Shown piece by piece: positions 49,688 to 51,806 of a DNA stretch of 64,000 nucleotides. Within the stretch, counting starts at the first letter, position 1, and each line of letters begins with the position of its first letter. The translations under genes were made by a program, and so were the position numbers. This DNA is from a virus. Lineage: Duplodnaviria; Caudoviricetes. Under the pieces are notes generated by a model. It was given only the letters and a program-made list of their open reading frames with translations. It ran no database searches and was not told where the DNA came from. The stretch lies in IMG/VR virus record IMGVR_UViG_3300025437_000009; one strand, written 5' to 3'.

Positions 49688-49951
49688 CTAATTTCCTTTT
49701 AATTTCCATATAATATGTTCTGTAGTTTCGTGATATCTGAACTCAACCACAGGTTCGCCTGGGCCTGTCCACATTGCTGTGCCTTCGTAGACAAACTGTA
49801 AAAATAACCAACGACCGGTTAAGGAACTACGTTTTGGTAACCATAAAAACTTTAATCGCCAATGGGCACGATTATAGAAAGCATCGTAAGTTTCATCCAT
49901 GCCTGTATATAAGCCTTGTGGAAACATTACTTGCCCCAGCCATTGCCCCAT
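49688..49951 (-). CDS. Hypothetical protein
   Basis: Trp-rich ORF; start uncertain. Confidence 0.55.
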   Translation of the reverse strand: MGQWLGQVMFPQGLYTGMDETYDAFYNRAHWRLKFLWLPKRSSLTGRWLFLQFVYEGTAMWTGPGEPVVEFRYHETTEHIIWKLKGN

Positions 49952-50787
49952 AGGTCCACATGCAATCTGGGACTATAATTAAATCCACGTTCGCAACAGA
50001 TATTGGCAATGTTTAGTTTATTTGATTCGTATGGATCAACAACACCACCCTGCGGCATTAAGTATACGGTACCTTTAAATCCACCTGCACGGAAAGCATC
50101 CACAGCACGTGTAGCTTCATTAACATGATCTTCAGTTTCAACAACAAACTTAAGATATACATGTCCATATGTTTGATAGATATTAACAATTAGTGGCTTA
50201 ATAGCATCATCCCACGATTCGCCTGATGCTGATAGTTTAGCACTGACTGAGAATGTAACTTCACGACCTGAACCAGCATCGGCCCAGTCAATCAAGTAAT
50301 CGCGGAAGTCTTCATGTAATTCTTGAGTACCATTTGTTTCAAACGTAATGTTCTTTAAGTCTGCCATACGTGGATGACTTAACAAATCAGCATAAGCACG
50401 TTGCCAGCCTAAAAGTGGCTCACCGCCAGTAATAACTAAATGTACATCATTGCCATTGTTCTGTACCCAACTACCGTTGGGAGTTAGGGCTAACATCTTG
50501 TCTACAAGTTCATCTGTAGTGTATGTTGGAGACAAATGTTTGAACGCAGGATGCCATGACGCATATGAATCACAGCCTGTTTCTACTAAAGGAAGATCTA
50601 AAAAATCTTTATACAGTTCTACCTTTTTAGCAACTTCATCTGCACCTGTAGACTTTTCACCAGGCTTACACCCAAACCCTGAACAGGTAAAGTTACATCC
50701 ATAAGTTCTTAAGAATACACTAGGTACTCCCACAAAGCGACCTTCGCCTTGTAGACTGTAAAATATTTCACTGACTTTAATCTTCAT
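49927..50787 (-). CDS. queE: 7-carboxy-7-deazaguanine synthase (radical SAM)
   Basis: SEIFYSLQGEG, VFLRTYGCNFTC, CDS, VITGGEPLL, ITFETNGT, SPRLHVDLWGN. Confidence 0.88.
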   Translation of the reverse strand: MKIKVSEIFYSLQGEGRFVGVPSVFLRTYGCNFTCSGFGCKPGEKSTGADEVAKKVELYKDFLDLPLVETGCDSYASWHPAFKHLSPTYTTDELVDKMLALTPNGSWVQNNGNDVHLVITGGEPLLGWQRAYADLLSHPRMADLKNITFETNGTQELHEDFRDYLIDWADAGSGREVTFSVSAKLSASGESWDDAIKPLIVNIYQTYGHVYLKFVVETEDHVNEATRAVDAFRAGGFKGTVYLMPQGGVVDPYESNKLNIANICCERGFNYSPRLHVDLWGNGWGK

Positions 50788-51033
50788 ATATTTTTGACCA
50801 TTCAACTAATTTTTGACTCTTACGCAACTGCGCCGCACGCAATTCTGCATCTGTATATACCTGATGTGCTTTGAGCAATTCTATTAATAGTGTAACATCT
50901 CCTAGCTCTTGAGTCAAGTGTTCTCTTTGGGTACCACCGTCTTTGTACCGATTTTCCATACCAAAGCGGCGGCATTTACTAATAGCCTGTATAACCTCAG
51001 CACACTCCTCTTGGAGTATGTCTAAGATTTCAT
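50777..51033 (-). CDS. MazG-like NTP pyrophosphohydrolase
   Basis: LQEECAEVIQAISK..RFG...L.QELGDV; a TAATG overlap with queD suggests start 51033. Confidence 0.75.
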
Positions 51034-51539
51034 TAACCTTCGAAGAGGTCTTCATTCCACTCACGATGTCCTTCACGGAACGCCATATTGCTTTGTGTTT
51101 CACGTACTTCTACACGATAACACCAAAGTCGATCAGCTTCTGCTTGACCCCACATGTCGGGAATATAAACTCCGTTTACAAACTTGTATAGTTGATCGGC
51201 TAGACCTTCACAACCTAGTTTAGGTAGGACGGTTAGTTTAGCTAGATTCTTTTCTTGCAATAATTTGTATGTTTCAAGCTCAGGATCATCCTCGGCTACT
51301 AATAATGTATGATCAAATTGACTTTCAAGAATGCCTTTGAGTTCTTTAAGACCGCCGTAGTCGGCAGCCCAATTACGCACATCTAGGTCATCTGTACCAA
51401 AGTAAAATTTCATACTAAACGAATAGCCGTGAATTAAGTTACAGTGACTATCAGCTCGCCATTGGCGATATGCACAGGGAAATGCATCGTGATACTCTTT
51501 AGTACTTGTGTACTTGTACTGCCTAGATTGGTTTGCCAT
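51033..51539 (-). CDS. queD: 6-carboxytetrahydropterin synthase (QueD/PTPS T-fold)
   Basis: SHCNLIHGY, DYGGLK, FDHTLLV, GCEGLA, VEVRET. Confidence 0.88.
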   Translation of the reverse strand: MANQSRQYKYTSTKEYHDAFPCAYRQWRADSHCNLIHGYSFSMKFYFGTDDLDVRNWAADYGGLKELKGILESQFDHTLLVAEDDPELETYKLLQEKNLAKLTVLPKLGCEGLADQLYKFVNGVYIPDMWGQAEADRLWCYRVEVRETQSNMAFREGHREWNEDLFEG

Positions 51540-51546
51540 TATAAAT

Positions 51547-51612
51547 CTCCTATGTTAATTATAGCATAGGCGGCAGAATTTGTAAAGCGGGATGACGCCG
51601 AAAGGCCGCTGA
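51547..51612 (-). ncRNA. Candidate cis-regulatory RNA (pseudoknot plus RBS-sequestering hairpin) in the queD leader; alternatively a sigma70 promoter
   Basis: AGCGG/CCGCU stem; loop CGGCG can pair with downstream UGCCG; CCUAUG/CAUAGG hairpin covers AGGAG. The same DNA also reads TTTACA-N17-TATAAT. Confidence 0.45.
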
Positions 51613-51626
51613 TTTTGGGAATATAA

Positions 51627-51806
51627 CTATTTATCTTGCGCAACTGGTGGTGAAACATTTGTGTCCACTTTAGTTGTATCAATTCCCATCTTTTTAGATA
51701 AGTATGGATCGATGTAAGGTTTATTAACAGTTTCATCTGCAACATTCCACCCCACGGCACTGACAAATCCTACTAATAACCAAGTTCCAATAAGTTCGAG
51801 TATCAA
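51627..51806 (-). CDS. Small membrane protein (59 aa, TTG start)
   Basis: MILELIGTWLLVGFVSAVGWNVAD...; fills the gap exactly; translated by hand. Confidence 0.55.
   Translation of the reverse strand: MILELIGTWLLVGFVSAVGWNVADETVNKPYIDPYLSKKMGIDTTKVDTNVSPPVAQDK

What the first reader, a model, noticed from the sequence alone, without database searches (positions are those of the whole stretch)
51540..51633. Riboswitch-like leader in front of phage queD
Seen on -: TAAATA (51628-51633), then AGCGG-[CCUUUCGGCGUCAUC]-CCGCU, an A/U linker (UUACAAAUUC), UGCCGC, and a CCUAUG/CAUAGG hairpin covering the AGGAG RBS. The loop CGGCG can pair with UGCCG (H-type pseudoknot), while the 5' GCGGC can alternatively pair with GCCGC, giving two exclusive folds. 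It is a GC-rich island in AT-rich DNA. Known: preQ1 riboswitches are small H-type pseudoknots upstream of que genes, but this sequence does not match the class I consensus I know. Inference: a possibly new deazaguanine/pterin-sensing switch in a phage. Competing explanation: TTTACA-N17-TATAAT is a promoter and the hairpin is a timing device.
Basis: partly seen in the sequence, partly recalled or inferred. Interest (0 to 1): 0.7.

Follow-up and report, generated by a model that had tools for sequence, protein, structure and literature searches.

The report
Phage queD-leader pseudoknot, likely ON-riboswitch
The short gap before this uncultured lake phage's queD gene encodes a small RNA pseudoknot that more than a hundred related phages keep with compensating base changes; it matches no catalogued RNA family and is wired like a riboswitch that switches translation on.

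Summary
In 134 distinct copies from uncultured phages (IMG/VR), the stem AGCGG/CCGCU (P1) is paired in 99% of cells, with three or four pair types at two positions. A loop-to-downstream helix (P2) covaries at all five pairs. The covariation score is 0.48, against 0.16 when shuffled (0 of 500 shuffles reach it) and 0.12 or less when slid.

The supported P2 is GGCG:CGCC.

About 13 unpaired nucleotides are invariant. Every checked copy heads a queD operon, with QueD as the next ORF in 167 of 177. Rfam gives no match.

The P2 3' strand is also complementary to the translation start region. In this window's class it shares CC with the hairpin that hides the ribosome-binding site. In other classes it carries an anti-AUG helix. 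Pseudoknot formation should therefore free the start site, which is ON logic.

A sigma-70-like promoter (TTTACA-17-TGnTATAAT) overlaps the element. It probably yields transcripts that bypass the switch.

The ligand and the transcription start sites are untested. This scan has already reported the same motif in many other genomes, with the same reading.

The parts
51628..51634 (-). ATAAATA box, 17 nt upstream of P1; candidate promoter element for the transcript that carries the pseudoknot. It overlaps the stop codon of the upstream 59-aa ORF.
   Evidence: for the sequence. In one search an ATAA[AG]TA/TAAATA box lies 5-20 nt upstream of P1 in 63% of 144 distinct contexts, against 1% at random positions. 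It is not enriched in the window as a whole.
51606..51610 (-). P1 5' strand, AGCGG
   Evidence: P1 is 99% paired in 134 sequences. Pair types are CG 94 / AU 22 / UA 17 at one position and GC 115 / CG 11 / UA 5 at another.
51600..51605 (-). L1, CCUUUC. It always begins N-C-U.
   Evidence: the first three loop nucleotides are CCU 53, UCU 50 and ACU 31.
51596..51599 (-). P2 5' strand, GGCG (pseudoknot)
   Evidence: all five P2 pairs covary. The pair next to L2 is UA 43, CG 24, AU 20, GC 16.
51591..51595 (-). L2, UCAUC. UCA is nearly invariant and the last C is invariant.
   Evidence: invariant columns.
51586..51590 (-). P1 3' strand, CCGCU
51573..51585 (-). L3, UUACAAAUUCUGC. Three alternating A and the final UCUGC are invariant.
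   Evidence: invariant A30, A32, A34, T36-C40 in 134 sequences.
51569..51572 (-). P2 3' strand, CGCC. Its last two C are also the first two bases of the P3 hairpin.
51549..51570 (-). P3 hairpin, CCUAUG / loop CUAUAAUUAA / CAUAGG. The 3' arm covers AGG of the Shine-Dalgarno sequence.
   Evidence: RNAalifold predicts it in 77 class A copies. All pairs are kept, but there are only G-U changes and no compensatory change.
51558..51586 (-). Sigma-70-like promoter overlapping the RNA element: -35 TTTACA (51586-51581), TG (51566-51565), -10 TATAAT (51563-51558). The predicted start is near 51551-51553, inside the P3 3' arm.
   Evidence: 11/12 with TG.: -10 positions T1 77/77, A2 77/77, T6 74/77, with the middle positions varying.
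51547..51551 (-). Shine-Dalgarno sequence, AGGAG
   Evidence: In one search its unpaired probability is 0.43 in the free fold and 0.77 with the pseudoknot imposed.
51033..51539 (-). queD (6-carboxytetrahydropterin synthase family, 168 aa), first gene after the element. A MazG-like gene (50777-51103) and queE (49927-50805) follow on the same strand.
   Evidence: Pfam PTPS 2e-13, MazG 1.7e-5, and a weak Radical_SAM match; 54% identity to the QueD of Acidovorax phage ACP17.
51534..51538 (-). UGGCA (bases 2-6 from the A of AUG). In this window it can pair with UGCCG (51575-51571), extending the sequestering structure.
   Evidence: MFE fold. This pairing is not conserved across class A; the equivalent anti-start helix is conserved in classes B and C.

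Best explanation
The queD leader encodes a cis-acting RNA switch of about 48 nt. It is an H-type pseudoknot made of P1 (AGCGG/CCGCU) and P2 (GGCG/CGCC), with invariant loop nucleotides that probably form a binding pocket.

The 3' strand of P2 has a second possible partner in the translation start region. In this window's class it shares two C with the hairpin that pairs with AGG of the Shine-Dalgarno sequence. In other classes it carries an anti-AUG sequence.

When the pseudoknot is formed, most likely locked by a small molecule linked to 7-deazaguanine or pterin metabolism, the ribosome-binding site is free and queD is translated, with the downstream mazG-like and queE genes presumably following. 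When it is not formed, the start region is sequestered. This is an ON switch.

Transcripts that carry the switch start just 5' of P1. In this class a second, sigma-70-like promoter lies inside the element. It probably makes short transcripts that lack the switch and are translated constitutively.

Shown: the structure, its strand, its gene association, the competing helices and the promoter-like sites. Inferred: ligand binding, the ON direction and both transcription start sites.
For: Structure:
- P1 and P2 covary. (134 distinct sequences): 89% of cells paired, against 70% shuffled. The covariation score is 0.484, against 0.155 shuffled (0 of 500 shuffles reach it) and 0.118 or less with slid partners.
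- Every P2 pair shows three or more Watson-Crick types.
- across 33 P2 haplotypes, 4.18 of 5 pairs form, against 2.72 when partners are permuted (0 of 5000 permutations reach it).

Strand: G-U pairs outnumber A-C mismatches 81 to 19.

Pocket-like conservation: 13 invariant positions, most of them unpaired.

Gene association:
- A QueD homologue is the next ORF in 167 of 177 copies.
- It is the second gene in five checked exceptions.
- There is a single copy in the 64-kb window.

Expression platform:
- The anti-start helix in classes B and C is 93.6% paired over 7 pairs in 60 sequences, against 65% or less when slid. It shows compensatory changes at two pairs.
- The P3 hairpin is predicted in all 77 class A copies and overlaps P2 by CC.
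- The Shine-Dalgarno sequence is more accessible with the pseudoknot imposed in 65 of 78 class A and 30 of 35 class C leaders.

Leader position: canonical TTGACA-N16-18-TATAAT promoters end 3-16 nt before P1 in 17% of contexts (control 2.6%). An ATAA[AG]TA box lies 5-20 nt before P1 in 63% (control 1%).

Breadth: the motif persists in phages whose QueD is only 37-45% identical to this one.
Against: - No ligand has been tested and none can be tested here.
- No RNA data were available to map start sites.
- In this window's class the hairpin P3 never shows a compensatory change. Both its arms could be conserved for the overlapping promoter and the Shine-Dalgarno sequence.
- If most queD mRNA starts at the internal promoter, near 51551, the pseudoknot would not be on it.
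- ON logic is unusual for a biosynthetic branch-point enzyme. Feedback OFF would be the textbook expectation.
- In short-platform class B leaders, the accessibility calculation gave mixed directions.
- The ATAA[AG]TA box is not enriched elsewhere in the window. It also often overlaps a stop codon.
Confidence: 0.5

Rival explanations
1. The pseudoknot is a protein-bound translational operator. It is recognised by a phage or host protein, in the manner of the pseudoknot in the T4 gene 32 leader or the RegA and gp43 operators. That protein, not a metabolite, decides between the pseudoknot and the sequestered start site.
For: - The structural evidence fits this reading equally well.
- Phage mRNA pseudoknots that serve protein autoregulation are known (T4 gene 32; my own knowledge).
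- Invariant loop nucleotides could be protein contacts.
Against: - The motif is kept nearly unchanged in phages whose QueD has diverged to 37-45% identity, so the partner would have to be equally conserved or host-encoded.
- The exclusive link to a small-molecule biosynthesis gene is typical of riboswitches.
- No candidate RNA-binding gene was seen next to the element.
Confidence: 0.2
2. The element is a ligand-independent timing or bypass device. Long transcripts from upstream fold so that the hairpin hides the ribosome-binding site. The internal sigma-70-like promoter starts transcripts inside the hairpin, and these are freely translated. The pseudoknot would then be only a constitutive 5' structure, serving as an mRNA stabiliser or a folding insulator.
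For: - A strong promoter-like site with a TG extension.
- A -10 conservation pattern typical of function: T1, A2 and T6 fixed, with the middle positions free.
- The predicted start lies in the 3' arm of P3.
- Copies with an internal promoter mostly have the ATAA[AG]TA box upstream (80 of 92). Copies without one more often have a canonical promoter upstream of P1.
- T4 uses the same device for gene e and others (my own knowledge).
Against: - It does not explain the invariant unpaired nucleotides.
- It does not explain why the P2 3' strand is kept complementary both to the loop and to the start region.
- Classes B and C mostly lack the internal promoter yet keep the pseudoknot and an anti-start helix.
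- This reading can coexist with the riboswitch reading rather than replace it.
Confidence: 0.2
3. The element is a divergent member of the class I preQ1 riboswitch family. It would bind preQ1 or preQ0 and repress queD.
For: - The topology is the same: a 5-bp P1, an invariant C at the end of L2 next to the P1 3' strand, an A-rich L3, and P2 formed by the tail.
- Some relatives have the P1 pair AGAGG/CCUCU and an L3 starting AUAAA. As I recall, the B. subtilis aptamer has both.
- The gene context is a que gene.
Against: - There is no Rfam preQ1 match even at E <= 10 on 101-111-nt stretches of two diverged copies.
- L1 and P2 are much longer than in preQ1-I.
- An invariant UCUGC is foreign to preQ1-I.
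- The P2 3' strand does not contain the Shine-Dalgarno sequence but competes with its sequestration, so the logic is reversed.
- It is found only in phage contigs.
Confidence: 0.08
4. There is no functional RNA: just a promoter preceded by a terminator-like hairpin of the upstream gene.
For: - The promoter-like site.
- The hairpin is followed by U-rich sequence in this window.
- The single-sequence fold is unremarkable.
Against: - Pseudoknotted covariation with a G-U bias on the sense strand.
- An invariant TCTGC in the promoter spacer.
- A 13-19-nt loop and no U tract in many relatives.
- Promoters lie directly upstream of P1 in many copies.
Confidence: 0.02

Closest known systems
preQ1-I riboswitch (Rfam RF00522; types I-III, e.g. 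B. subtilis queC, T. tengcongensis, E. coli yhhQ; PMC10622847)
   Same: - A small H-type pseudoknot in front of a queuosine or 7-deazaguanine pathway gene.
- A 5-bp P1.
- An invariant C at the 3' end of L2, adjoining the P1 3' strand. This is the position of the specificity C in preQ1-I.
- An A-rich L3.
- P2 made by the 3' tail.
- Control at the level of translation.
   Different: - No covariance-model match.
- L1 is 4-10 nt and always starts N-C-U.
- P2 has 3-7 Watson-Crick pairs.
- L3 is 13 nt and ends in an invariant UCUGC.
- The P2 3' strand does not hold the Shine-Dalgarno sequence but competes with a start-site-sequestering helix, which implies ON rather than OFF.
- It is seen only in uncultured phage contigs.
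- The ligand is unknown.
Translational ON riboswitches with a competing sequestering helix (e.g. the Vibrio vulnificus add adenine riboswitch; my own knowledge)
   Same: One aptamer strand has two exclusive partners: the aptamer helix and a helix that hides the Shine-Dalgarno and AUG region. The ligand-bound aptamer frees the start site.
   Different: A different fold (three-way junction against pseudoknot), and a different ligand and gene context. Here the mechanism is inferred, not shown.
T4-type start-site hairpins with a promoter inside (gene e lysozyme, gene 49, soc; my own knowledge)
   Same: In long transcripts a hairpin pairs with the ribosome-binding site. A promoter placed within the hairpin gives shorter transcripts that cannot form it. 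This window's P3, with TATAAT in its loop, has exactly this layout.
   Different: In T4 the internal promoter is a late promoter and there is no upstream pseudoknot. Here the internal promoter is sigma-70-like, and the hairpin's 5' arm overlaps a covarying pseudoknot helix.
T4 gene 32 mRNA leader pseudoknot (autoregulatory operator; my own knowledge)
   Same: An H-type pseudoknot at the 5' end of a phage mRNA leader, used for translational control.
   Different: The gene 32 pseudoknot nucleates cooperative binding of gp32 to an unstructured leader. No such protein link is evident here, and the downstream gene is a metabolic enzyme.
Other H-type pseudoknot riboswitches (SAM-II, SAM-V, guanidine-III, fluoride)
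   Same: Compact pseudoknot aptamers with loop-helix triples that act on translation initiation.
   Different: No Rfam match to any of them, and unrelated consensus and gene context.

Membership tests
preQ1-I riboswitch (RF00522) | Scores with the family covariance model | tested here: not met
   There is no preQ1 family match at E <= 10 in the 1.6-kb scan, the 111-nt scan, or a 101-nt scan of a diverged copy, L102.
preQ1-I riboswitch (RF00522) | H-type pseudoknot with a roughly 5-bp P1 and a P2 formed by the 3' tail | tested here: met
   P1 is 99% paired with compensatory changes. P2 covaries at all five pairs and crosses P1.
preQ1-I riboswitch (RF00522) | Conserved C at the end of L2 next to the P1 3' strand (ligand-pairing base) and an A-rich L3 | tested here: inconclusive
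   An invariant C occupies that position, and three alternating A in L3 are invariant. Whether they do the same job cannot be told from sequence.
preQ1-I riboswitch (RF00522) | The P2 3' strand overlaps the Shine-Dalgarno sequence, so ligand binding hides it (OFF) | tested here: not met
   The P2 3' strand lies about 18-45 nt upstream of the Shine-Dalgarno sequence. It is complementary to the start region or shares bases with the anti-SD hairpin, which gives the opposite logic.
preQ1-I riboswitch (RF00522) | Binds preQ1 or preQ0 | not testable with these tools
   This needs in-line probing, ITC or SPR.
preQ1-II and preQ1-III riboswitches | Scores with the family covariance models | tested here: not met
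   Searches gave no match.
Riboswitch (generic) | Conserved structured aptamer with covarying helices and conserved unpaired nucleotides, in the 5' leader of a metabolic gene | tested here: met
Riboswitch (generic) | Expression platform mutually exclusive with an aptamer helix | tested here: met
   Classes B and C: the anti-start helix overlaps the P2 3' strand almost fully. Class A, including this window: a two-base overlap with P3, which itself has no compensatory support.
Riboswitch (generic) | Direct, specific ligand binding that changes expression | not testable with these tools
T4-type start-site hairpin with internal promoter | Hairpin pairing with the ribosome-binding site, with a promoter whose start lies inside the hairpin | tested here: inconclusive
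   The layout is present and the -10 pattern is conserved, but no transcript ends could be mapped.

The most novel reading that the evidence does not exclude
A phage-specific riboswitch class, so far found only in uncultured phages. It would sense an intermediate or product of the 7-deazaguanine pathway, or its pterin precursor, and switch translation of the queD operon ON. That would make it the first riboswitch dedicated to DNA hypermodification, combined with an internal promoter that bypasses it at another stage of infection.
Probability: 0.45. Interest if true: 0.8.

Novelty: new variant of a known kind. Interest (0 to 1): 0.72.

Why it matters
Riboswitches carried by phages are few, and those known are copies of bacterial classes. 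This would be a class of its own, apparently confined to phages, with hundreds of representatives. It controls the first committed step of the pathway that replaces guanine in phage DNA with 7-deazaguanines, an anti-restriction strategy.

- It would give a small (about 48 nt) natural aptamer with a new consensus, and probably a new ligand or a new way of recognising a 7-deazapurine or pterin.
- It would show how a phage meters a costly DNA modification.
- It would be a compact example of an RNA switch and a promoter written in the same 60 bases.

The hypothesis is directly testable with a synthetic RNA and a handful of commercially available or enzymatically made compounds.

Tried and rejected
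- Rfam scans at a permissive threshold gave only chance-level hits, and no preQ1, SAM-II, guanidine or other riboswitch family.
- The single-sequence fold is not more stable than shuffles.
- DNA search of cultured phages with 1.6 kb and with the 76-nt leader gave no real match. The QueD protein finds only homologues of 54% identity or less there.
- The whole-genome search of the window's own assembly failed because no genome is held.
- For sequencing runs, no RNA holder was listed, so no transcript ends could be examined and read laying was not used.
- I considered whether P1 is a palindromic protein operator in DNA. I rejected this because the arm spacing varies from 13 to 19 nt, P2 interleaves with P1, and G-U pairs are strand-biased.
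- I considered stop-codon readthrough or a frameshift signal for the upstream ORF. I rejected this because many copies follow a promoter rather than an ORF, and the spacing to the stop varies.
- ATAAATA as a genome-wide T4-like late promoter is not supported in this window: there are 9 occurrences on both strands, fewer than composition predicts. It stays a local, position-specific conserved box.
- A second weak model hit at 50190-50234 (+), at 18.6 bits and antisense within queE, lacks the invariant L3. I take it as chance.
- The bacterial genome scan gave 25 pattern hits. Only four are true copies, all on MAG contigs of 4-8 kb that also carry queD, so they are probably mis-binned phage DNA.
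- Literature searches found no description of this motif. The two main papers on phage 7-deazaguanine pathways (PMC6884629 and 10.1101/2023.04.13.536721) do not mention riboswitches.

Full report
**What is there**

On the minus strand, the 87-nt gap between a 59-aa ORF (stop 51629-51627) and queD (ATG 51539) reads as follows:
- ATAAATA (51634-51628)
- AGCGG (51610-51606)
- a 15-nt loop, CCUUUC-GGCG-UCAUC
- CCGCU (51590-51586)
- UUACAAAUUCUGC
- CGCC (51572-51569)
- a hairpin CCUAUG / CUAUAAUUAA / CAUAGG (51570-51549), whose 3' arm covers AGG of the Shine-Dalgarno AGGAG (51551-51547).

The downstream ORF is a PTPS/QueD-family protein. It is followed by a MazG-like gene and a radical-SAM QueE-like gene. 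A phosphoribosyltransferase lies upstream on the same strand.

The consensus scan finds TTTACA-17-TATAAT with a TG extension, 11 of 12. Alone, the sequence folds no better than shuffles (z = +0.38). Rfam gives nothing, even on a 111-nt stretch at E <= 10.

**Relatives**

No cultured phage shares the DNA. The best cultured QueD is 54% identical.

IMG/VR holds at least 588 loci with close QueD relatives.

After removing chance pattern hits, 177 copies remained. A QueD homologue is the next ORF in 167 of them. In five checked exceptions, one ORF intervenes before queD. A few queD loci lack the motif within 3 kb, mostly where queD follows queE.

A covariance model built from 134 distinct cores finds one copy in the 64-kb window, at 66 bits. 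The next hit scores 18.6 bits, lies antisense in queE and lacks the invariant L3.

A scan of one genome per prokaryotic species found four true copies. All are on 4-8-kb contigs of metagenome bins that also carry queD. I read these as mis-binned phage DNA. The element is therefore, as far as these collections show, phage-specific.

**The structure is real**

On 134 distinct sequences (alignment A2), the tool counts are:
- P1 is paired in 99% of cells. One position shows CG 94, AU 22 and UA 17. Another shows GC 115, CG 11 and UA 5.
- P2 has changes on both sides at all five pairs. The pair next to L2 is UA 43, CG 24, AU 20 and GC 16.
- The covariation score is 0.484, against 0.155 in shuffles (0 of 500 reach it) and at most 0.118 when partners are slid.

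I also made an anchor-based count on 33 P2 haplotypes of the first 58 sequences. It gives 4.18 of 5 pairs, against 2.72 after permuting partners (0 of 5000 permutations reach it) and 1.0-2.2 in slid registers.

G-U pairs outnumber A-C mismatches 81 to 19. The folded molecule is therefore the sense-strand RNA.

The arm spacing of P1 varies from 13 to 19 nt, and P2 interleaves with P1. This excludes a DNA operator palindrome.

Thirteen positions are invariant, most of them unpaired:
- the C that ends L2
- three alternating A in L3
- UCUGC at the end of L3.

In addition, L1 always begins N-C-U.

Its alternative fold GCGGC:GCCGC is complete in 25 of 58 sequences. Neither is a conserved feature.

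**Position in the transcript**

I examined 144 distinct upstream contexts.
- In 17%, a canonical TTGACA-N16-18-TATAAT promoter ends 3-16 nt before P1 (2.6% at random positions). Several of these are perfect.
- In 63%, an ATAA[AG]TA/TAAATA box lies 5-20 nt before P1 (1% at random). This window is one of them.

The pseudoknot therefore sits at the very 5' end of a leader.

The box is not enriched elsewhere in the window, so its nature as a promoter element is an inference. No RNA run was listed for this DNA, so start sites remain unmapped.

**The expression platform**

Downstream of P2 the family splits into classes.

In classes B and C (60 distinct sequences), RNAalifold on its own predicts a helix between the P2 3' strand and the start codon region. 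Extended to seven pairs, this helix runs from position -1 to +6 around the AUG.
- It is paired in 93.6% of cells, against 65% or less in slid registers.
- It has compensatory changes at two pairs: UA 37 / AU 5, and CG 43 / UA 8.
- It overlaps the P2 3' strand almost completely, so the two helices exclude each other. The P2 5' strand is in effect a decoy of the start region.

In class A (77 sequences, including this window), the conserved element is the P3 hairpin.
- Every pair is kept, but only G-U changes occur. The pairing is consistent but not proven.
- Its first two C are the last two bases of the 4-5-bp P2, so P2 and P3 also compete.
- In this window UGCCG (51575-51571) can additionally pair with UGGCA (51538-51534). 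That extension is not conserved in the class.

I then compared partition-function folding with P1 forced and the P2 strands blocked against free folding. The constrained state raises the unpaired probability of the Shine-Dalgarno sequence in 65 of 78 class A and 30 of 35 class C leaders. For this window it rises from 0.43 to 0.77. The short class B leaders gave mixed results by this measure, because there the AUG rather than the Shine-Dalgarno sequence is in the helix.

Taken together, formation of the conserved pseudoknot should open the start site. This is ON logic.

**The overlapping promoter**

In class A, the loop of P3 holds a -10 hexamer whose T1 (77/77), A2 (77/77) and T6 (74/77) are fixed while the middle positions vary. 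The variants seen include TATAAT 44 and TAAAAT 19, with TATTAT, TAACAT and others in small numbers. The hexamer is preceded by TG-N.

The -35 position holds TTTACA, TATACA, TTGATA, TCGACA or TTGACA.

That is the signature of a working sigma-70-type promoter. Its start would fall in the 3' arm of P3, near 51551-51553, giving a short leader that can form neither P3 nor the pseudoknot.

Copies with this internal promoter nearly always have the ATAA[AG]TA box upstream (80 of 92). Copies without it more often have a canonical promoter in front of P1.

My reading is that the operon has one host-type promoter. It is placed either before the switch or inside it, and in the latter case a second kind of promoter makes the switch-bearing transcript. 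This matches the layout of T4 genes whose start-site hairpin contains a promoter (my own knowledge).

**What it most likely is**

The element combines:
- covarying helices
- many invariant unpaired nucleotides
- persistence across phages whose QueD has diverged to 37-45% identity
- exclusive association with a small-molecule biosynthesis operon
- a variable expression platform that always competes with one aptamer strand.

This is the classical portrait of a riboswitch. I put about 0.5 on a small-molecule ON riboswitch, about 0.2 on a protein-bound operator, and about 0.2 on a ligand-independent structural or timing role. The structure itself I regard as established.

The ligand is unknown. 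The gene context points to the pathway GTP, H2NTP, CPH4, CDG and on to deazaguanine bases. ON logic would fit a substrate or demand signal better than end-product feedback.

**Comparison with known families**

The nearest known fold is the class I preQ1 riboswitch. The shared features are:
- H-type topology
- a 5-bp P1
- a C at the end of L2 next to the P1 3' strand
- an A-rich L3
- a que gene downstream.

PMC10622847 summarises the three subtypes and the role of the specificity C.

Membership fails on three tested features:
- no model match in two diverged copies
- much longer L1 and P2, with an invariant UCUGC
- a P2 3' strand that does not contain the Shine-Dalgarno sequence but competes with its sequestration.

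The element works like a translational ON riboswitch such as add, and in class A also like the T4 hairpin-with-promoter device.

**Novelty**

Searches of the paper library found no description of the motif. The two main papers on phage 7-deazaguanine pathways do not mention riboswitches.

Within this scan the same motif has already been noted in at least 44 other genomes, and follow-up reports reached the same reading. I consulted those only after my own analysis, and they agree with it.

This report adds four things:
- the register correction for this window
- the strand test by G-U bias
- the tool-counted anti-start helix
- the promoter architecture, with its either-or relation between an internal and an upstream sigma-70-type promoter.

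Noticed in passing
window 50190-50234 (+), antisense within queE: The covariance model gives a weak second hit here (18.6 bits, E 0.004). It has AGUGG...UCAUC-CCAC and a possible P2 (AGCA:UGCU) but lacks the invariant L3. It is probably chance.
   Followed up: partly
window 55981-55953 (-) and 54458-54430 (-): Two further near-perfect sigma-70-type promoter matches (12/12 and 11/12) lie on the same strand, upstream in the folE region. This suggests that host-type promoters drive this whole deazaguanine gene block.
   Followed up: no
L205, L216, L223, L224 (genome contigs): True copies of the motif with queD sit on 4-8-kb contigs binned into Bacteroidota, Crocinitomicaceae, Chitinophagales and Nitrospira metagenome-assembled genomes. 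These are most likely phage contigs mis-binned into bacterial MAGs, so they are not host evidence.
   Followed up: partly
class C relatives, e.g. L034:2957-3012, L051:2956-3012: Two subclasses show linked differences. CAAACUUGCU goes with GGAGACUAGAG-AUG, and CAAACUUACU goes with GGAGGCAAGAG-AUG. I found no convincing pairing between the two segments, so the conserved CAAACUU block is only partly explained by the anti-start helix.
   Followed up: partly
L008, L037, L184, L191, L200: In some relatives one extra ORF (45-243 aa, no match to this window's proteins) is inserted between the switch and queD. The switch therefore marks the operon start rather than queD itself.
   Followed up: partly
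window 51627-51806 (-): The 59-aa ORF between the phosphoribosyltransferase and the switch has no Pfam match. Its C-terminal codons (Q-D-K-stop) carry the ATAAATA box and are conserved in the closest relatives.
   Followed up: no
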